A stretch of DNA of 64,000 bases. It comes from an uncultured Actinomycetes bacterium (GTDB lineage: Bacteria > Actinomycetota > UBA4738 > HRBIN12). Shown here in pieces: positions 5,914 through 20,619 of this stretch (positions are counted from its first letter, which is position 1; each line of letters begins with the position of its first letter). The stretch lies in the NCBI GenBank assembly GCA_963821935.1, contig CAWGFM010000005.1, forward strand, positions 453,129 through 517,128, read 5' to 3'. The translations under genes and the position numbers were made by a program. The notes under the pieces are model-generated. The model was not told the DNA's origin and did no database searches. It saw only the letters and a list, made by a program, of their open reading frames with translations.

Positions 5914-6003
5914 CTCCAGTGACGGCGGGACGTTCGCACGAGGCTACCAGCGAGAACGCACATGGTCGACCTGCAGGGCCGCGCTCACTCGCCGTGCTGG
6001 GCT

Positions 6004-6519
6004 TCACCCTTCGTCGTGGTTCCGGCCGATCTCCTCCTCGAGCGCTTCCAGATGCGCCAGCTGAGCGATGTCCTTGGTTCGTGCGCTTGCCCGCTTCATG
6101 CGCATCAGGTCGGACACCGACGCGACCATGATGACGATCCCGTCGGCGATCTCGAACCGCGTCGCGTCTGCCGCGAGGTCGTCGTAGCCGCGAGTACCGG
6201 TCGGCGTGCCGAGGATGTCGAACGGGCCGTGATCGGTCCGAAGGGTGAACCTGTCGCCGAGGGCGAGCGCCTGCGCGTCCAGCGGGAACGGGAACTCGCC
6301 TTCCTCTCGGGCTCCTCGAAGGGAGGCATGGATCGCACCCAAGACGGAAGCCATCCGCTCGAGGTTGGCTCGATCTCGGGAGTAGCACACGTCGAGATCA
6401 TGCGTGACGACGGGGGTGCCATGGATGTTGCCGGCAAGACCGCCGATCACGACGAACAGCACGTCGTGTTCGACCAGCGTGACCAGGAGCCGTTCGGGAT
6501 CGAAATCATCGGAGGTCAT
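6004..6519 (-). CDS. Minimal nucleotidyltransferase-fold protein (putative toxin/effector partner of the XRE regulator)
   Basis: G[ST]x(5-9)DxD-like motif (HGTPVVTHDLDV) within IGGLAGNIHG. Overlaps the upstream XRE gene by 4 bp. Confidence 0.45.
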   Translation of the reverse strand: MTSDDFDPERLLVTLVEHDVLFVVIGGLAGNIHGTPVVTHDLDVCYSRDRANLERMASVLGAIHASLRGAREEGEFPFPLDAQALALGDRFTLRTDHGPFDILGTPTGTRGYDDLAADATRFEIADGIVIMVASVSDLMRMKRASARTKDIAQLAHLEALEEEIGRNHDEG

Positions 6520-10178: not shown

Positions 10179-10966
10179 GGCAGGTCCAGCGTCTCGTGGA
10201 CGAGCCCCACCAGCTTGCGCGCGAATCCGGAACGCAGGCCGTCTTCGGCGTGACCGAACCCTTCGCCCAGCAGCAGCCGCTTGGGCTCCCCCGCGGCCTC
10301 GAACAGGCGCTTCGCATGCTCCACGGGGAACAACCGGTCGTCGGTGCCGTGCACGATCACGATGGGGACGGGCGCGATCTTGCCGATCACGTGTTCCGGC
10401 GAGTCGGGCGGATCCCAGTGATCGGGAAGTCGTACCCCATAGGCGCGCAGGGCCGCACGCCCCGCCGGCGTACCGATGCGCGCGTGCATGTGGCGTCGTT
10501 CCTTGGGATGCGCGTCACCGTGCCAGTCCCAGTACGCCAGCGACGAGATCCCCACGACCGCATCGGCGCCGCCGATCAACGCGCCGTGCCGGATCGTGGC
10601 GATGCCGCCCATGGACGCCCCAACGGTCACCACCAGGTCGTGTCCATCCGCGCGGGCCAGTCGGTGGACGGCCTCCACGTCGTACATCTCGTCGCCGCCG
10701 AAATCGCAGATGCCGGTGCTGCCCCCGTGCCCGCGCATGTCCATGGCGTAGACCGCGAACCAGGGCGTCAACCGCTCGGCGAACAGCGCGAACTTCGGCT
10801 TGCGATGCCACCCCATGAGCCCGTGTGACAGGACGACCGCGGGCAGCGCCTGGCCCGCCTCGCCGATACGGGTTCCTTGGATGCGCACGCCGTCCTCGGT
10901 GACGACTTCGAACGTGTGCGCCGGCACCCGCCAATGGTGGGAGGTGAACTCTTGAACCGACGTCAT
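10166..10966 (-). CDS. Alpha/beta hydrolase
   Basis: HGxxG oxyanion-hole motif (VVLSHGLMGW) and nucleophile elbow GASMGG. Confidence 0.7.
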   Translation of the reverse strand: MTSVQEFTSHHWRVPAHTFEVVTEDGVRIQGTRIGEAGQALPAVVLSHGLMGWHRKPKFALFAERLTPWFAVYAMDMRGHGGSTGICDFGGDEMYDVEAVHRLARADGHDLVVTVGASMGGIATIRHGALIGGADAVVGISSLAYWDWHGDAHPKERRHMHARIGTPAGRAALRAYGVRLPDHWDPPDSPEHVIGKIAPVPIVIVHGTDDRLFPVEHAKRLFEAAGEPKRLLLGEGFGHAEDGLRSGFARKLVGLVHETLDLPWSE

Positions 10967-15461: not shown

Positions 15462-16838
15462 ATGAAACGGATGATCGCGGCCATCGCCGCTGCGCTGACG
15501 ATCCTGGTGTGCATGGCACCCGCGACGAGTGCCAGAGCGGTTCGGCCTCGAGCGCCGTACATCACATCGACCCCGCCGATGATCGTGGCGCTGCAGCCGG
15601 GGGTCGACATCCTGCCGATCCTGACGGCGGGCGACGTGATCGGTGGCCGCGTGAGCGGGTTCCAGTTCACGGGTGTCCCCGACGGGATCGGCGTCTACCA
15701 GAGCGGGCCGGACAACCTCGAGGTCTACACGAACCACGAGCTCTCCTATCGGTACGGAGACCCGGCGTGGTCGCGTGTCTCCCATCTGACGCTGAACTCC
15801 GGCGCCGAGGTGACCGCCGCCAGCTACGTCGTCGACGGCACCGAGCGCTACGAGTACTTCTGCTCCTCGACCCTGGACGTGCTCGACGGCGTGCCGTGGT
15901 ACCTGACCGGCGAGGAATGGTTCGCGTCGCCCAAGGGCGGCATGTCGGTCGCGATCAACGTCCTGACCGGTCGTCTCCGCGAGACGCCCCAGTTCGGCGC
16001 CCTCAACCATGAGAACGTCGTGCCGATCCACGGCATGTCCCGCGCCGTGATGTACCTGTCCGAGGACTCCTTCCGCTTGCGCTCGCAGGCGTACAACTAC
16101 TTCGCCGACAGCTTCACCAAGGCGATCAAGGGCAACGGCAAGTTCGCGGTGTGGGTGCCCGACGACCAGGGCGACGGCGACCCTTCGGCCGACGACATCT
16201 CCGTCGGCGACACCATGACGGGACGATTCCGGACGATCCGGCACGTGGAGCGGTACAACGGGAAGGAGCTGAACGAGCGCGCCGAACGCCTGGGCTCGTT
16301 CAACTTCGTGCGCATCGAGGACGCCGCCACCGACCCGTCGAACCCAGGCGTCGTCTACATCTCCGAGACGGGCCACAACGCTGCCGAGACCAGGAACGGC
16401 CGGCTGTACCGGATGACCTACGACGTGGCCCACCCGCGCCAGGCGACCCTGGAGGTCGTGCTCGACGGTGATGCCGGCGACGACATCGTCAACCCCGACA
16501 ACTTGGGCATCAACTCCACGTCGCTGGTGATCCAGGAGGACCGCAACAAGGCGAAGTCGGGATACGCCCGCATCCACGTGTACGACTTGTCCGCCGAGAC
16601 ACTGACGACCGTGGCCCGCTTGGATCCGGGCCAACGCGCCATCGAGAACGGCGGCGGCCCCGGTGTCTGGGAATCCAGCGGAGCCGTCGACGTCAGCGAC
16701 TTCTTCGGCCCCAGCACCTGGCTGGTCGACGTCCAAGCCCACGCAACCTCGATCCGACAACAAGGCATCAACCTGAAGATCGACTCAGCGAAGGGTCAGC
16801 GGGGTCAACTGCTGTTGCTCACGATCCCGGGGACGTAG
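15462..16838 (+). CDS. Secreted protein of unknown function (possible beta-propeller/phytase- or PhoX-like fold)
   Basis: Signal peptide (MKRMIAAIAAALTILVCMAPATSARA). The function guess is weak. Confidence 0.6.
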   Translation: MKRMIAAIAAALTILVCMAPATSARAVRPRAPYITSTPPMIVALQPGVDILPILTAGDVIGGRVSGFQFTGVPDGIGVYQSGPDNLEVYTNHELSYRYGDPAWSRVSHLTLNSGAEVTAASYVVDGTERYEYFCSSTLDVLDGVPWYLTGEEWFASPKGGMSVAINVLTGRLRETPQFGALNHENVVPIHGMSRAVMYLSEDSFRLRSQAYNYFADSFTKAIKGNGKFAVWVPDDQGDGDPSADDISVGDTMTGRFRTIRHVERYNGKELNERAERLGSFNFVRIEDAATDPSNPGVVYISETGHNAAETRNGRLYRMTYDVAHPRQATLEVVLDGDAGDDIVNPDNLGINSTSLVIQEDRNKAKSGYARIHVYDLSAETLTTVARLDPGQRAIENGGGPGVWESSGAVDVSDFFGPSTWLVDVQAHATSIRQQGINLKIDSAKGQRGQLLLLTIPGT

Positions 16839-16915
16839 CGAGGCCAATTTCTCCAAGCGCCGAAGGTTGCACCAACTGACAGCGAGGAGTCTGCCCGGGG
16901 TCAGTCGCTGGCTCC

Positions 16916-18289
16916 TTGCGTGACCGATCGGCGATGCGCGATGCTTCTGTGGTGCAGCCGACACATGCTTCCCGACTTATCCGCTTCGGTCAGAAGCTCT
17001 GGAAACCCTCAGAAAATATGCGGGACCCGGAATGGAACGGGTTTCCAAACTTCTGGACGATGACCGACGCCGCCAATGGCACACACATCCGGCAATCTGC
17101 GGGCATCAATCCCATCGCTCGTCCCGTGGGACAGGAGCGGCGACCAGCTGTCGTGATCTTTCTGACACCCGCCGGGGAGAGACACCGTTTGCCCTGGCTC
17201 GATGAGGTAGATCTCGAGTCGGGATTCGTCCGTTACTTCGGTGACAACAAGTCTGAACTCGAGCTAACCGCGGAGAACTCTCCAGGGAATCGGGTTCTGC
17301 TTGCTGAGATGGATCGCTACTCATCGTCCGATCCTGACACACGCGCTTTGGCGGCTCCGCTGATGTTCTTCAGGAACCTGGGTAACCAGGGCGGTGGCCC
17401 CTTAACCGAGTTTCTGGGCTTCGGTGTGATTCGTGAGGCACACAGGATGACTCAGCTACACAAAGGCAAGTCGTTCTCGAACTATGCCTTTGACTGCATC
17501 TTGTTCCGCGGAGACGAAACGAGGGAAGGGGCCGAGTTCATCAGCATTGACTGGATCGATGAACGGAGGGATAGATCCATCGCCGATGGCGCGGCGAATC
17601 GCAATGCTCCACGGGCTTGGAAACGGTGGGTTACAAGTGGGCTTGAAGGTCTGGACTCGCCAGGCGTCCGTCGAACGGTCATCACTGAAGACGTCCTGCC
17701 TTACGAGGAACAAGTGCCGCCCCGCGATAGCCCGCTTGGGGGAACCCTCAGCCAAATCTATGAACACTACGAGGGAAGCTACAAGCATGGATTTCAAGCC
17801 TTGGCTGCGCTATCCACTCAACTGGTACTGGAAAGCCCCGGCACTACCTATTACCCGGGCTGGGTTACTCCCGTTGGCCCAGATGGAGGGGTCGACTTCG
17901 TCCAACGCATGGACCTCGGCCAAGGCTTTTCGTCAACCAAGCTGGTGATTCTTGGCCAGGCCAAATGCCGCAAGCCATGGCCAAGAGGCTCAAGCGTTAC
18001 AGCCGAGGATTTGGCGCGGGTCGTCGCCAGGCTGCGCCGAGGTTGGATCGGCGCGTATGTGACGACGTCCGCGTTCTCCGACGCGGCTCAGAAGGAACTC
18101 ATCGTCGACGAGTATCCAATTGTCCTTATCAACGGCTGGCGTCTAGCCCAGGCAGCTGAACAGCTTCGTGACGCTTTGGGACACGCGACCATGCACGAGC
18201 TACTTGTCTGGGTTGACAGCGCATACCTCAGACTCATGAGTGCAGCCCGGCCCAAGCCAGCAGATATCGCTCGAGAGATGCCACTCTAG
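16916..18289 (+). CDS. MspJI-family-like modification-dependent (Type IV) restriction endonuclease: N-terminal ~300-aa putative modified-base-sensing domain plus C-terminal Mrr/PD-(D/E)xK nuclease core
   Basis: C-terminus GGVDFVQRMD...KLVILGQAKCRK...GAYVTTSAFSDAAQKEL gives D-x20-Q-x-K, matching the unusual D-x20-Q-x-K catalytic motif recalled for MspJI. Length of 457 aa is close to MspJI. Start codon uncertain (several in-frame Met up to about 17015). Confidence 0.55.
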   Translation: MRDRSAMRDASVVQPTHASRLIRFGQKLWKPSENMRDPEWNGFPNFWTMTDAANGTHIRQSAGINPIARPVGQERRPAVVIFLTPAGERHRLPWLDEVDLESGFVRYFGDNKSELELTAENSPGNRVLLAEMDRYSSSDPDTRALAAPLMFFRNLGNQGGGPLTEFLGFGVIREAHRMTQLHKGKSFSNYAFDCILFRGDETREGAEFISIDWIDERRDRSIADGAANRNAPRAWKRWVTSGLEGLDSPGVRRTVITEDVLPYEEQVPPRDSPLGGTLSQIYEHYEGSYKHGFQALAALSTQLVLESPGTTYYPGWVTPVGPDGGVDFVQRMDLGQGFSSTKLVILGQAKCRKPWPRGSSVTAEDLARVVARLRRGWIGAYVTTSAFSDAAQKELIVDEYPIVLINGWRLAQAAEQLRDALGHATMHELLVWVDSAYLRLMSAARPKPADIAREMPL

Positions 18290-18657
18290 CTTGAGTCACG
18301 CGCCATTGATCGCCGATGGATCCACAGGCCCGGGATGGTCTTGCCGCTTCGGTTGTCGGGATCGTCCCCCGCGGTGCCGGTCCAGACCACTGATTTCAAG
18401 CAGATCTTGCAGAACGCGCCTTGGTCTGGGAACCAGTGCACGGGGTACGCCTCGTGCCGTCGATCAACCTCGGAGATCTCGAAGTTGTATTCCGACCAGA
18501 TGGTCTCGAAGGCGAAGACTCCGCCCTCCATGAACTCGCGATCGGCTGCTTCCCAAGCCTCATCTCGAGAAGCACCACTCACGTAGATCGTGGCTTCGTC
18601 CAAGGTTTCCCTGACGATGTTGACCTCCCAGCGTTGGTTCGCCTTCCGCTTGCTCAT
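18286..18657 (-). CDS. Hypothetical protein (123 aa), convergent with and 4 bp overlapping the nuclease gene
   Basis: Strong RBS AGGAGGA upstream of ATG 18657. Lies in the low-GC islet. No recognisable domain. Confidence 0.5.
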   Translation of the reverse strand: MSKRKANQRWEVNIVRETLDEATIYVSGASRDEAWEAADREFMEGGVFAFETIWSEYNFEISEVDRRHEAYPVHWFPDQGAFCKICLKSVVWTGTAGDDPDNRSGKTIPGLWIHRRSMARDSS

Positions 18658-18818
18658 GCGTCCTCCTTGATCGGCGACGCTCCTGAGATTGATCCGATCG
18701 GCCTTCGATTGCCTGTGATGTGCGCACATTCTCCCCAGATCCCCGCGGACCTGTTGCATGTCAGACCCTTGAATCACACTAGTGTAACTCCCTCTCCCGA
18801 CCCCATCGGGAGGTACAC

Positions 18819-19049
18819 ATGCAGGACGCTCGTAGGTTCAGGGATGCGCGGGACGCCGCCGAGCTTTCGCTCGGCGGCGCCGTCGCGAACATCCGAGCGG
18901 CACGCCAACAGCTCGACCGGCTCGCCGAGCTCGTCCCCGACCGGTCCGAGGTGGACGGGCTGCGTGGCATCGCCACGATGATCGCCTACTCGATCGAGGG
19001 GCTGGTCGTGGCCGTCGGCCGGATCACGCCCGACGGGTCCCGGTCCTAG
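18819..19049 (+). CDS. Hypothetical small protein (76 aa)
   Basis: ORF only. Confidence 0.3.
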   Translation: MQDARRFRDARDAAELSLGGAVANIRAARQQLDRLAELVPDRSEVDGLRGIATMIAYSIEGLVVAVGRITPDGSRS

Positions 19050-19231
19050 GCGCTCGGCTCGTACTCCTGGGCGTGCTCGTCACGGTCGATGGCGACGGTG
19101 CGCTCCATGATGTCGAGCGTCTCCGCCACCGACTGACCGTTCTCGTCGGCCGCGGCCTTCACGTCCTCGTACCGGATGTTGTGCTCGCCCATCTGCAGGT
19201 GAGCCTTCATGCATCCACAGGTCAGGCACAT
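19046..19231 (-). CDS. Small Cys-rich protein (MCLTCGCMKAH..., 61 aa), putative metal-binding
   Basis: CxxCGC N-terminus. Confidence 0.4.
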   Translation of the reverse strand: MCLTCGCMKAHLQMGEHNIRYEDVKAAADENGQSVAETLDIMERTVAIDRDEHAQEYEPSA

Positions 19232-19291
19232 GATCGTCTCCTTCCGTCGACCGAAGTGTCGATCGAGTTCATCGTGAACGGTGGGCGTCGG

Positions 19292-19738
19292 TCAAGCCGC
19301 TGCTTCGCGCCGCGAGATGCCGGTCGCCAGGCGAGCGAGCGCCAGAGCGGCCAGTGCCAGCCCGAAGTCGCGCAGGGCGATGTCGTAGAAGCGCGGTGGG
19401 TCGACCGTGAGCAGGTTGACGATGATGCCGCCGAGCCACGCCGCCACCAGGTAGCCGCCGAACACCGGCCGCACCGCCACCACGATGCCCGCCAGGATCT
19501 CGATCACGCCGACCGCGTACATGAACGCCTGGGCGTCGCCTGGGACGATCCGGTCGAGCCACGGCGCCAGGTAGACGGGCCAGTCCACCATGACGTTGAA
19601 GAACTTGTCCAAGCCGAACAGGATCGGCGCGACCGTGAACCCCGTCCGCAGGATCCAGAACGCCTGGTCCACCGGATCGGCCGTGCGCATCGCACTCCCC
19701 GCCCTCGCATGACTCGTCGTCTCTGTGACCGCCATCAC
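19292..19738 (-). CDS. DoxX-family membrane protein
   Basis: Four TM segments with a DoxX-like pattern. Paired with the following HTH regulator, as is common. Confidence 0.55.
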   Translation of the reverse strand: MMAVTETTSHARAGSAMRTADPVDQAFWILRTGFTVAPILFGLDKFFNVMVDWPVYLAPWLDRIVPGDAQAFMYAVGVIEILAGIVVAVRPVFGGYLVAAWLGGIIVNLLTVDPPRFYDIALRDFGLALAALALARLATGISRREAAA

Positions 19739-19902
19739 GATCCCCTCCTTCTAAGACTCATCTCTGTTGGTCTTAGACTGAGATTGATACACCTCACATG
19801 GCGTCGGCGTCAAGGATATTTCGCTAGGAAGTTTGAGCGTTAGATACCGTTGGCATGCGCATCGTCTCATTCCACCTATAGATCTTGGTGTAGTTTGAGA
19901 CC

Positions 19903-20619
19903 ATGCTCGAGAGACTCGAACGAGACGTCGCGCCGGTAGCAGCGCTCGATGACGACCTGCGGCGGCGGATGTATCTGTTCATCCGAGAGCATGGACGGCC
20001 GGCGTCGCGCGAGGAGGTCGCTTCGGTGGTCGGCATCTCCAGGAAGCTCGCCGCTTTCCATCTGGACAAGCTGGTGGAACGCGGCCTCTTGGTCGCCACC
20101 TACGCCCGTCCCCCCGGACGCTCGGGGCGCGGGGCAGGACGCAGCGCCAAGTACTACGAGCCCTCCGATAGGCAGCTCGACATCTCGATCCCCGAACGCA
20201 ACTACGACGTCATCGGCTCGATCCTGGTCGACGCGATCGCGGAGCAGCAGCCGGGCGAGCCTGCCGACTCGGCGGCACGGCGCGTAGCCCACGACACCGG
20301 CACGCGGATCGGGCACGACGAGCGAGAGCGACTCCGCCTGCCGCCTCCCGGCACCGAGCGAGCGATGTCGGTCATCGCGCACCTGCTCGCCGCATATGGG
20401 TACGAGCCCGCGATCGACGACGATGGATCGATGGCCCTGCGGAGCTGTCCGTTCGACGCTCTCGCGCAGCAGAACCGAGACATCGTCTGCGGCCTCAACC
20501 GTGAGCTCGTCGCCGGGGTGGTGGACGGCATCGGGAACCGGACCCTGGAGACGGTGCTCGCACCGACCCCGGACCGGTGCTGCGTGCAACTGCGCCCGAC
20601 GTCCCGGGCGACGGAGTAG
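19903..20619 (+). CDS. Winged-helix (ArsR/MarR-like) transcriptional regulator
   Basis: N-terminal wHTH (RRRMYLFIREHGRPASREEVASVVGISRKLAAFHLDKLVERGLL). Confidence 0.65.
   Translation: MLERLERDVAPVAALDDDLRRRMYLFIREHGRPASREEVASVVGISRKLAAFHLDKLVERGLLVATYARPPGRSGRGAGRSAKYYEPSDRQLDISIPERNYDVIGSILVDAIAEQQPGEPADSAARRVAHDTGTRIGHDERERLRLPPPGTERAMSVIAHLLAAYGYEPAIDDDGSMALRSCPFDALAQQNRDIVCGLNRELVAGVVDGIGNRTLETVLAPTPDRCCVQLRPTSRATE

What the first reader, a model, noticed from the sequence alone, without database searches (positions are those of the whole stretch)
16860..18800. Low-GC islet carrying an MspJI-like modification-dependent (Type IV) restriction endonuclease
Between the secreted-protein gene (ends 16838) and the next high-GC genes, GC drops from about 70% to about 55% over roughly 1.9 kb. 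The 457-aa ORF (16916-18289) ends in an Mrr/PD-(D/E)xK nuclease core, GGVDFVQRMDLGQGFSSTKLVILGQAKCRK...GAYVTTSAFSD. Counting residues gives D-x20-Q-x-K, the unusual Gln-for-Glu catalytic triad I recall for MspJI (D334/Q355/K357), and MspJI is a 456-aa enzyme. The ~300-aa N-terminal domain matches no domain I recognise and would be the modified-cytosine (SRA-like) sensor if the analogy holds. A 123-aa orphan ORF with a strong RBS lies convergent and overlapping by 4 bp. The islet is closed by two perfect palindromes (TGTGCGCACA, ACACTAGTGT) at 18690-18790. No methyltransferase is present, consistent with a solitary Type IV enzyme.
Basis: partly seen in the sequence, partly recalled or inferred. 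Interest (0 to 1): 0.7.

Follow-up and report, generated by a model that had tools for sequence, protein, structure and literature searches.

The report
MspJI-family methylcytosine-dependent restriction enzyme islet
The low-GC stretch encodes an intact relative of MspJI, a well-studied enzyme that cuts DNA carrying methylated cytosine; it is an ordinary new member of a known family, sitting in a small swap-prone defence slot of an uncultured soil actinobacterium.

Summary
ORF 16916-18289 (probable start ATG 16934) is a full-length homolog of MspJI: PDB 4f0p E=9.5e-76, 40% identity, Pfam RE_AspBHI_N + Mrr_cat, PADLOC mREase_II 3e-108. It keeps the catalytic D-X20-Q-A-K motif (D327/Q348/K350) and the 5mC pocket (W94/D96/Y107). 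Its AlphaFold model hits MspJI, AspBHI and LpnPI first, then plant SRA domains. The residues MspJI uses to read sequence context are not conserved, so the target context is unknown.

The GC dip (0.58 against 0.68; GC3 0.64 against 0.82-0.96) is the deepest in the window.

The islet is not a recent insertion. Near-identical strains (flanks ~98%) carry an HNH-nuclease cassette in exactly this slot, and diverged relatives carry orthologous low-GC REases near glnA.

The 123-aa convergent ORF is a real gene (dN/dS 0.15-0.25). It belongs to a very rare family with phage relatives and a possible H/CxxC/H zinc site; its function is unknown.

The two palindromes are not significant. One is a mutated copy of a conserved TGTGA-N6-TCACA (CRP-like) site.

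Verdict: a new member of a known kind, of low-to-moderate interest.

The parts
16839..18775 (.). Divergent low-GC islet (REase, small ORF and the small ORF's upstream region)
   Evidence: Against L002/L003 the flanks are 97-100% identical. Homology stops exactly after the stop codon of the secreted-protein gene (16838) and resumes at 18322. Identity is only 78-93% over 18322-18771 and returns to about 100% from about 18772. This is the GC minimum of the window.
16916..18289 (+). MspJI-family modification-dependent restriction endonuclease gene. The longest ORF is 457 aa from TTG 16916; the probable start is ATG 16934 (451 aa).
   Evidence: The ORF is intact and aligns to MspJI residues 16-441.
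17084..17641 (+). N-terminal SRA-like DNA-recognition domain (Pfam RE_AspBHI_N, residues 57-242)
   Evidence: Pfam E=7.9e-19. Foldseek hits to the LpnPI and AspBHI N-domains (TMt 0.64-0.66) and to plant SRA domains.
17195..17236 (+). Predicted 5mC-binding pocket residues W94 (17195-17197), D96 (17201-17203) and Y107 (17234-17236)
   Evidence: They align to MspJI W101, D103 and Y114. The roles of those MspJI residues come from PMC4231741. All three are invariant in 25 homologs.
17861..18151 (+). C-terminal Mrr_cat / PD-(D/E)xK-type nuclease domain (residues 316-412)
   Evidence: Pfam Mrr_cat E=2.2e-6. 45% identity to MspJI over the C-terminal part of the alignment (MspJI residues 266-441).
17894..17965 (+). 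Catalytic motif D327-X20-Q348-A349-K350 (DX20QAK)
   Evidence: Aligns to MspJI D334/Q355/A356/K357. Invariant in alignment A1.
18286..18657 (-). 123-aa conserved protein of unknown function, with a conserved H68...C83-x2-C86...PGxWxH114 motif (possible zinc site). It is convergent with the REase, and the stop codons overlap by 4 bp.
   Evidence: 14 close homologs and 30 representatives in 1.84 billion proteins. dN/dS 0.15-0.25. No Pfam, NCBIfam, PADLOC or PHROG hit. The AF2 model has pLDDT 68 and gave no informative fold match.
18658..18735 (-).
   Evidence: An alignment of 8 loci shows about 75 nt conserved even where the protein is only 36% identical. TGTGA-N6-TCACA is perfect or has 1 mismatch in L001-L010, and is mutated in the window by a C>G change plus a 1-nt deletion. 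There is no significant RNA structure and no Rfam hit.
18776..18785 (.). Second palindrome ACACTAGTGT, near the right edge of the divergent segment
   Evidence: Present in the window but imperfect in L001, L002, L004 and L005. Its palindrome density is at chance level. No function is assigned.

Best explanation

By homology, the enzyme works as follows. [quoted passage not shown] There W94 and Y107 stack on the base, and D96 hydrogen-bonds N3/N4. The C-terminal Mrr-type PD-(D/E)xK-variant domain (D327-X20-Q348-A-K350, Mg2+-dependent) then cuts both strands at a fixed distance on the 3' side of the modified base, probably as a homotetramer.

Its biological role is to destroy incoming phage or plasmid DNA that carries cytosine-5 modification. 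This requires that the host does not itself make that modification in the recognised context.

What is shown here: homology, domain architecture, conservation of the catalytic and pocket residues, an intact reading frame, purifying selection, atypical composition, and the cassette-type organisation of the locus. What is inferred: activity, modification specificity, cut distance, oligomeric state and the defence role. The flanking-sequence preference cannot be predicted, because MspJI's context-reading residues are not conserved.
For: - Sequence: phmmer against PDB sequences gives MspJI 4f0p at E=9.5e-76 over query residues 15-437, and AspBHI 4oc8 at 3.6e-11. Identity to MspJI is 40% over 413 aligned positions.
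- Domains: Pfam RE_AspBHI_N 7.9e-19 + Mrr_cat 2.2e-6; PADLOC mREase_II 3.2e-108.
- Key residues: MspJI W101, D103, Y114, F115, D117, K119 and D334/Q355/A356/K357 map to identical residues. Their roles are described in PMC4231741. All are invariant or nearly so across 25 homologs.
- Structure: the AF2 model has pLDDT 85. Foldseek gives MspJI 5.6e-42, AspBHI 6.3e-21, LpnPI N-domain 2.1e-9, and SUVH6/SUVH9/KRYPTONITE SRA domains at about 8e-4.
- Selection: against orthologs dN is 0.19-0.34 with saturated dS.
- Family size: over 1000 homologs, and 190 confirmed loci among GTDB species representatives.
Against: - No biochemical data exist for this protein.
- MspJI's context readers are not conserved: Q33 becomes P31, E65 becomes S61, K173 falls in a 4-residue deletion, and W92 becomes A86. 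Specificity may therefore differ.
- Several related loci carry split or fragmentary copies (L004, L005/L010, L014-L016), so this gene is often lost in the lineage.
- Only 64 kb of the host genome is visible, so a conflicting host methyltransferase cannot be excluded.
Confidence: 0.9

Rival explanations
1. The REase and the 123-aa convergent gene form a functional two-gene module. The small, possibly zinc-binding protein, whose distant relatives are phage-encoded, would modulate the nuclease. It could be an inhibitor or immunity factor, a controller, or a sensor, perhaps under a CRP-family regulator.
For: - In all 10 chromosomal loci found, the small ORF lies directly beside a modification-dependent-type nuclease cassette, either MspJI-like or HNH_2.
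- It belongs to the divergent low-GC segment and not to the conserved backbone.
- It is under purifying selection.
- P0140 fuses or joins it to a second accessory family ('acc'), which also neighbours MspJI-like genes in L004, L011, L012 and L013.
- A conserved TGTGA-N6-TCACA site precedes it.
Against: - All 10 loci are syntenic copies from one lineage, so they are not independent.
- About 70 other MspJI-family loci lack the small ORF.
- Phage-borne relatives sit in arrays of small unannotated ORFs; the ten largest neighbours scanned against PHROGs gave no nuclease annotation.
- Recombinant MspJI is active on its own (PMC2938202).
- The 4-bp overlap is not conserved: there is a gap of about 25 nt in L008.
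- No fold or family match suggests a mechanism.
Confidence: 0.15
2. The gene is an MspJI-family member that senses a different modification from 5mC/5hmC, or has lost modification dependence.
For: The sequence-context loops differ from MspJI, and W92 is replaced by A86. Specificities already vary within the family (Table 4 of PMC3874153).
Against: - The residues that make the pocket cytosine- and 5-substituent-specific are all conserved: D96, the F108 main chain and the D110 C-alpha position, together with the W94/Y107 stacking pair.
- Every characterised family member is 5mC/5hmC-dependent.
Confidence: 0.07
3. The gene is an inactive remnant on its way to decay, like the split copies in related genomes.
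For: Split or fragmentary copies occur in L004, L005/L010, L014, L015 and L016. In near-identical strains (L002/L003) the gene is replaced altogether.
Against: - The window copy is full length with every catalytic and pocket residue intact.
- L001 carries the same gene at 99.8% identity.
- dN is far below the saturated dS.
- From my own knowledge, some of the frameshifts in relatives may be long-read assembly errors.
Confidence: 0.05

Closest known systems
MspJI (Mycobacterium sp. JLS; PDB 4F0P/4F0Q/4R28)
   Same: - Same length class (451-457 aa against 456 aa) and the same two-domain architecture.
- 40% identity over 413 residues.
- Identical DX20QAK catalytic motif.
- Identical 5mC pocket residues (W, D, Y, F, D, K).
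- Best sequence and structure match.
   Different: - Context-reading residues differ: Q33 becomes P, E65 becomes S, the K173 loop is shortened by 4 residues, and W92 becomes A. The mCNNR specificity and the N12/N16 cut distance cannot be assumed.
- MspJI is encoded next to a DNA methyltransferase and a helicase (PMC2938202). This gene has neither.
AspBHI, LpnPI, FspEI, SgeI and other characterised MspJI-family enzymes
   Same: Same Pfam domains (RE_AspBHI_N + Mrr_cat). Structural matches to AspBHI (E=6.3e-21) and to the LpnPI N-domain (2.1e-9).
   Different: These are much more distant in sequence: AspBHI at E=3.6e-11, and LpnPI not significant by sequence. Each has its own sequence context.
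Eukaryotic SRA (YDG) domains (UHRF1, SUVH5/6/9, KRYPTONITE)
   Same: The N-terminal domain model matches SUVH6, SUVH9 and KRYPTONITE SRA domains at Foldseek E of about 8e-4, probability 1.00. They share the same base-flipping logic, with an Asp reading the flipped cytosine (PMC4231741).
   Different: There is no detectable sequence similarity. The SRA domains are fused to chromatin-modifying domains and not to a nuclease.
E. coli Mrr and SRA-HNH enzymes (TagI, ScoA3IV)
   Same: Mrr shares the Mrr_cat nuclease fold. The SRA-HNH enzymes share an SRA-type sensor and 5mC dependence.
   Different: Mrr has a different N-terminal domain and is about 300 aa long. The SRA-HNH enzymes use an HNH nuclease. 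Neither family's defining domain combination is present here.
Defence hotspots with interchangeable cassettes between conserved core genes (concept known from E. coli and Pseudomonas pan-genomes; my own knowledge)
   Same: The flanks are identical while the content differs. The window and L001 carry an MspJI-like gene. L002, L003, L006 and L007 carry an HNH_2 nuclease cassette in the same slot.
   Different: The slot is very small (1.5-2.2 kb). No integrase, transposase or tRNA lies nearby. Exchange appears to run through homology in the secreted-protein gene and the small ORF.

Membership tests
MspJI family (Type IIM / Type IV modification-dependent REases) | Full-length sequence homology to characterised members | tested here: met
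   MspJI E=9.5e-76 covering query 15-437 and MspJI 16-441, at 40% identity. AspBHI E=3.6e-11. PADLOC mREase_II 3.2e-108.
MspJI family (Type IIM / Type IV modification-dependent REases) | Two-domain architecture: N-terminal SRA-like recognition domain plus C-terminal Mrr_cat nuclease | tested here: met
   Pfam PF18062 (residues 57-242) + PF04471 (residues 316-412). The AF2 model hits MspJI, AspBHI and LpnPI, then SRA domains.
MspJI family (Type IIM / Type IV modification-dependent REases) | Catalytic D-X20-Q-A-K variant of PD-(D/E)xK | tested here: met
   D327, Q348, A349 and K350 align to MspJI D334/Q355/A356/K357. Invariant in 25 homologs.
MspJI family (Type IIM / Type IV modification-dependent REases) | 5mC-binding pocket: aromatic sandwich (W101/Y114) and Asp103 reading N3/N4 | tested here: met
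   W94, Y107 and D96 are conserved, as are F108, D110 and K112.
MspJI family (Type IIM / Type IV modification-dependent REases) | Cleavage only of 5mC/5hmC DNA, at a fixed distance 3' of the modified base | not testable with these tools
   This needs purified protein and methylated substrates.
MspJI family (Type IIM / Type IV modification-dependent REases) | Homotetrameric assembly | not tested
   Only a monomer was modelled. The tetramer is inferred from the MspJI and AspBHI crystal structures (abstracts).
MspJI isospecificity (mCNNR) | Context-reading residues Q33, E65 and K173 | tested here: not met
   They map to P31, S61 and a 4-residue deletion. The enzyme should not be assumed to be an MspJI isoschizomer.
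E. coli Mrr-type Type IV enzymes | Mrr_N winged-helix N-terminal domain plus Mrr_cat, about 300 aa | tested here: not met
   No Mrr_N hit; the N-terminus is RE_AspBHI_N and the length is 451-457 aa.
SRA-HNH modification-dependent REases (TagI/ScoA3IV) | HNH nuclease domain | tested here: not met
   The nuclease domain is Mrr_cat, with no HNH hit. An HNH_2 nuclease does occur, but in the alternative cassette of L002 and L007.
Classical R-M system | Cognate methyltransferase adjacent to the endonuclease | tested here: not met
   There is no methyltransferase among the Pfam-annotated neighbours, and no C5 or N6 MTase motif ORF anywhere in the 64-kb window by a crude regex screen.

The most novel reading that the evidence does not exclude
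The 123-aa H/CxxC/H protein, together with the ~160-aa 'acc' protein to which it is fused or joined in P0140, is an undescribed accessory module that travels with modification-dependent nucleases (MspJI-like or HNH). It is controlled through a conserved CRP-type operator. It modulates the nucleases, for example as a built-in inhibitor or immunity factor related to phage anti-restriction proteins, or as a signal-dependent switch that couples restriction to cAMP or nutritional state.
Probability: 0.12. Interest if true: 0.6.

Novelty: new member of a known kind. Interest (0 to 1): 0.25.

Why it matters
As it stands, this adds one more intact MspJI-family enzyme, about 40% identical to MspJI and with altered context-reading loops, from an uncultured soil actinomycete. 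Such enzymes are useful epigenomics reagents, and a new sequence-context specificity would have modest practical value.

The locus is also a clean natural example of allelic replacement of one modification-dependent nuclease by another between ~98%-identical backbones. It points to two small uncharacterised protein families, one with phage relatives, that recur beside these nucleases. None of this changes current understanding of restriction systems.

Tried and rejected
- The single-protein scan of GTDB genomes found no confirmed relative. It was repeated with an alignment.
- Foldseek against afdb50 was unavailable.
- For the 123-aa protein, Pfam, NCBIfam, PADLOC and PHROGs gave nothing.
- BFVD gave nothing below E=0.1, and a profile search against PDB sequences gave nothing.
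- tblastn of the 123-aa protein and of its distant relative P0148 against 50,697 annotated phage genomes gave no match.
- Rfam found no RNA family in 16000-20000.
- The sigma-70 promoter scan found none, and the three terminator-like sites lie inside the REase coding sequence at chance level.
- The conserved leader of the small ORF and the hairpin over the RBS of the 76-aa ORF are no more stable than shuffled sequence, with z of 0.05 and -1.09. An RNA-structure explanation was therefore dropped in favour of a DNA operator or promoter.
- P0146, a 1017-aa protein with 12 matched stretches, is a cysteine-rich HYR-like repeat protein and was judged a spurious hit.
- I looked for direct repeats or att-like sites at the islet borders and found none; the repeat families around the islet are short chance-level matches.
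- The palindromes as islet boundaries were rejected on frequency, and because they are absent from L001.
Full report
**Observation.**
- The longest ORF on the + strand runs 16916-18289 (457 aa from TTG). The gene caller used for the near-identical locus L001 starts at the in-frame ATG six codons later (window 16934, 451 aa).
- A sliding GC profile drops from about 0.66-0.72 in the flanks to 0.56-0.61 between about 16800 and 18750.
- The lowest 1500-bp GC value of the whole 64-kb window is here: 0.582 at 17201, against a window mean of 0.677 with sd 0.024.
- Third-position GC is 0.635 for the REase and 0.766 for the small ORF, against 0.82-0.96 in ten neighbouring genes.
- The 123-aa ORF (18286-18657, minus strand) has AAGGAGG 6 nt before its ATG, and its stop codon overlaps the REase stop by 4 bp.
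- Both palindromes exist, at 18719-18728 and 18776-18785.

**Identity of the 457-aa protein.**
- Pfam finds RE_AspBHI_N (residues 57-242, E=7.9e-19) and Mrr_cat (316-412, E=2.2e-6).
- PADLOC's mREase_II model matches at 3.2e-108 over nearly the full length.
- Against PDB sequences the best hit is MspJI (4f0p/4f0q/4r28, 456 aa) at E=9.5e-76, aligning query 15-437 to MspJI 16-441. AspBHI follows at 3.6e-11.
- Parsing that alignment gives 40% identity over 413 positions: 37% over the N-terminal part of the alignment (MspJI residues 16-265) and 45% over the C-terminal part (266-441).
- An AlphaFold2 model built on 25 homologs has mean pLDDT 85.
- Its Foldseek hits in the PDB are MspJI (5.6e-42), AspBHI (6.3e-21), the LpnPI recognition domain (2.1e-9, TMt 0.66), and then the SRA domains of SUVH6, SUVH9 and KRYPTONITE (about 8e-4, probability 1.00).
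- The whole-chain TM-score of about 0.5 with a large rmsd most likely reflects a different relative orientation of the two domains. The fold itself matches.

**Functional residues.** The MspJI-DNA structure paper (PMC4231741) gives the roles of the key residues.
- The flipped 5mC is sandwiched by Trp101 and Tyr114.
- It is read by Asp103 (N3 and N4) and by the main chains of Ser90 and Phe115. The methyl group contacts Asp117.
- The catalytic motif is DX20QAK (Asp334, Gln355, Ala356, Lys357).
- In the window protein these positions are W94, Y107, D96, T84, F108, D110 and D327/Q348/A349/K350. I confirmed the codons in the DNA. All are invariant or nearly so in an alignment of 25 homologs spanning 38-75% identity.
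- By contrast, the residues that read flanking bases in MspJI (Gln33, Glu65, Lys173) correspond to P31, S61 and a four-residue deletion, and Trp92 corresponds to A86. Characterised family members already differ in context preference (Table 4 of PMC3874153), so the recognition context of this enzyme cannot be predicted.

**Mechanism (inferred by homology).** The SRA-like domain flips 5mC or 5hmC into the conserved pocket. The Mrr-type nuclease domain, probably within a tetramer, then cuts both strands at a fixed distance 3' of the modified base. The host must lack the corresponding methylation.
- MspJI itself sharply lowers transformation of dcm+ E. coli (PMC2938202), which is the obvious functional test.
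- REBASE files MspJI under Type IIM.
- No methyltransferase lies next to the gene or is detectable by motif in the window.
- The 2010 paper notes that about half of the subfamily, MspJI included, does sit beside a 5mC methyltransferase. The solitary state is therefore common but not diagnostic.

**Is the gene alive?** It is full length and keeps all key residues. L001, a second assembly with 97.9% DNA identity over the shared 8.7 kb, encodes the same protein at 99.8%.
- Against orthologs in L008, L009, L013, L012 and L011, dN is 0.19-0.34 while synonymous sites are saturated. This indicates purifying selection.
- Several related loci have split or fragmentary copies: L005/L010, L014, L015, L016 and L004. 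The gene is evidently often lost. From my own knowledge, these 'MFD' MAGs are probably long-read assemblies in which frameshift errors occur, so some of these splits may be artefacts.

**Genomic setting.** The closest genomes are MAGs labelled 'uncultured Actinomycetes bacterium', with MFD isolate names. The window's own species is not among the GTDB representatives carrying the gene.
- The locus lies a few kb from glnA in all relatives.
- The most informative comparison is with L002 and L003. Their flanks are 97-100% identical to the window, but homology stops exactly after the stop codon of the upstream secreted-protein gene (window 16838) and resumes at 18322, twelve codons before the end of the small ORF.
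- In between, the window has the 1.48-kb REase gene. L002 and L003 instead have 2.2 kb encoding a ~205-aa protein, a ~160-aa protein ('acc') and an HNH_2 nuclease.
- That HNH nuclease is intact at 306 aa in L007. Its HNH region resembles NCBIfam's phosphorothioate-DNA restriction endonuclease model at 4e-22, which is below that model's cut-off.
- The small ORF and its upstream region (18322-18771) are only 78-93% identical between the window and L002, and the small ORF's dS is 0.36, against roughly 2% backbone divergence. The divergent islet therefore spans about 16839-18775 and includes the small ORF.
- No integrase, transposase, tRNA or flanking direct repeat is associated with it. Exchange by homologous recombination through the flanks is the simplest reading.
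- Orthologous REases in more diverged relatives have the same low GC (0.58-0.61 against flanks of 0.69-0.72). The atypical composition is thus a stable property of this gene pool and not evidence of a recent insertion into this genome.

**The 123-aa ORF.** It is a real gene. Its dN/dS is 0.15-0.25 in six comparisons and it has 14 close homologs.
- An exhaustive profile search of 1.84 billion representatives found only 30 members.
- Conserved positions include H68, C83-x2-C86, W92-T-G and T107-I-P-G-x-W-x-H114. This looks like a zinc site, but that is inference only.
- Distant members (P0148, P0141) lie in long arrays of tiny same-strand ORFs. One such contig (L090) carries PHROG families at E down to 1.7e-44, so those relatives are phage-borne.
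- P0140 joins the small-ORF domain (E=2e-22) to the 'acc' domain (E=1e-32) in one reading frame. It comes from a single 1.3-kb contig, so a true fusion and a merged pair of adjacent genes cannot be told apart.
- 'acc' also neighbours MspJI-like genes in L004, L011, L012 and L013.
- These links make a functional connection with the nucleases conceivable. However, all chromosomal occurrences come from one syntenic lineage, about 70 other MspJI-family loci lack the gene, and MspJI works alone in vitro. I give the two-gene reading about 15%.

**The palindromes.** With 150 perfect 10-nt palindromes in the window and 37 neighbouring pairs within 100 nt, two such palindromes are unremarkable.
- An alignment of eight loci shows about 75 nt of conserved non-coding DNA upstream of the small ORF. 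It is conserved even in L009, where the protein is only 36% identical.
- That region contains TGTGA-N6-TCACA (perfect, or with one mismatch as CGTGA) in L001-L010. Further copies lie upstream of 'acc' in L006 and L011.
- From my own knowledge this is the CRP/GlxR-family operator consensus.
- In the window the site carries a C>G change and a 1-nt deletion (TGTGATGTGCGCACAT).
- L001, with the same REase, has the intact site and lacks both perfect palindromes.
- Neither leader folds better than shuffled controls, and Rfam finds nothing.

**Verdict.** The modestly interesting extras are the precise allelic swap of two modification-dependent-type nucleases between near-identical strains, and the two small uncharacterised accessory families with a conserved CRP-like operator.

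Noticed in passing
window 16839-18321 versus L002 10334-12532 (also L003, L006, L007): Near-identical strains (flanks 97-100% identical) carry, in exactly this slot, a 2.2-kb cassette in place of the MspJI-like gene. The cassette encodes a ~205-aa protein, a ~160-aa protein ('acc') and an HNH_2 nuclease (306 aa, intact in L007). This is a clean allelic swap of two modification-dependent-type nucleases, with no mobility genes nearby.
   Followed up: yes
L002 10999-11502(-); L007 5095-5553(-); L013 7712-8464(-); L011 ~5915-6367(-); L012 5371-5865(+); L004 ~10399-10767(+); absent from the window: An uncharacterised ~150-170-aa protein family ('acc', motif ...PPE[LI]Y...RW...DG.PDPEA...EEAYAVA) recurs beside both the HNH cassette and MspJI-like genes. 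In P0140 (375 aa, a single 1.3-kb metagenomic contig) it is fused, or merged by assembly, with the 123-aa family. It has no Pfam, PADLOC or PHROG match.
   Followed up: partly
window 18714-18729; L001/L002/L003/L004 9929-9944; L007 4027-4042; L006 9828-9843 and 11490-11505; L011 6421-6436: A TGTGA-N6-TCACA inverted repeat (the CRP/GlxR-type operator consensus, from my own knowledge) is conserved about 60 nt upstream of the small ORF in all relatives. It also occurs upstream of 'acc' in two loci. The window's copy is mutated by a C>G change plus a 1-nt deletion.
   Followed up: partly
L090 6001-6303, L091, L092 (P0148); L089 374-733 (P0141): Distant relatives of the 123-aa protein sit in long arrays of tightly packed small same-strand ORFs. 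These contigs carry PHROG families (E down to 1.7e-44), so they are phage genomes. None matched the 50,697 annotated phage records by tblastn.
   Followed up: partly
L005/L010 (~6224-6231), L014, L015, L016, L004 11668-12021; L002/L003 11939-11948: Many related loci have split or fragmentary copies of the MspJI-like gene, and L002/L003 have a split HNH gene. This could be real decay of the nuclease genes or long-read frameshift errors; the two were not distinguished.
   Followed up: no
window 18794-18821 and ORF 18819-19049(+): A 76-aa high-GC ORF of unknown function is divergently oriented from the small ORF. Its GGGAGG ribosome-binding site sits in a CTCCCG-N7-CGGGAG hairpin. The hairpin is no more stable than shuffled sequence (z=-1.09). 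The ORF is conserved in L001-L005.
   Followed up: partly
window 19724-19739: A second CRP-like site with one mismatch (TGTGACCGCCATCACG) lies at the 5' end of the 148-aa ORF (19292-19738, minus strand). It is conserved in L001-L003. Window-wide, the number of such 1-mismatch sites is at chance level (2 found, 1.4 expected).
   Followed up: no
window 18658-18775 versus L001: The intergenic region between the small ORF and the 76-aa ORF differs markedly between the window and L001, even though these two share the same REase (99.8%). In this stretch L001 resembles L002 instead. This suggests a mosaic recombination history within the islet's right edge.
   Followed up: no
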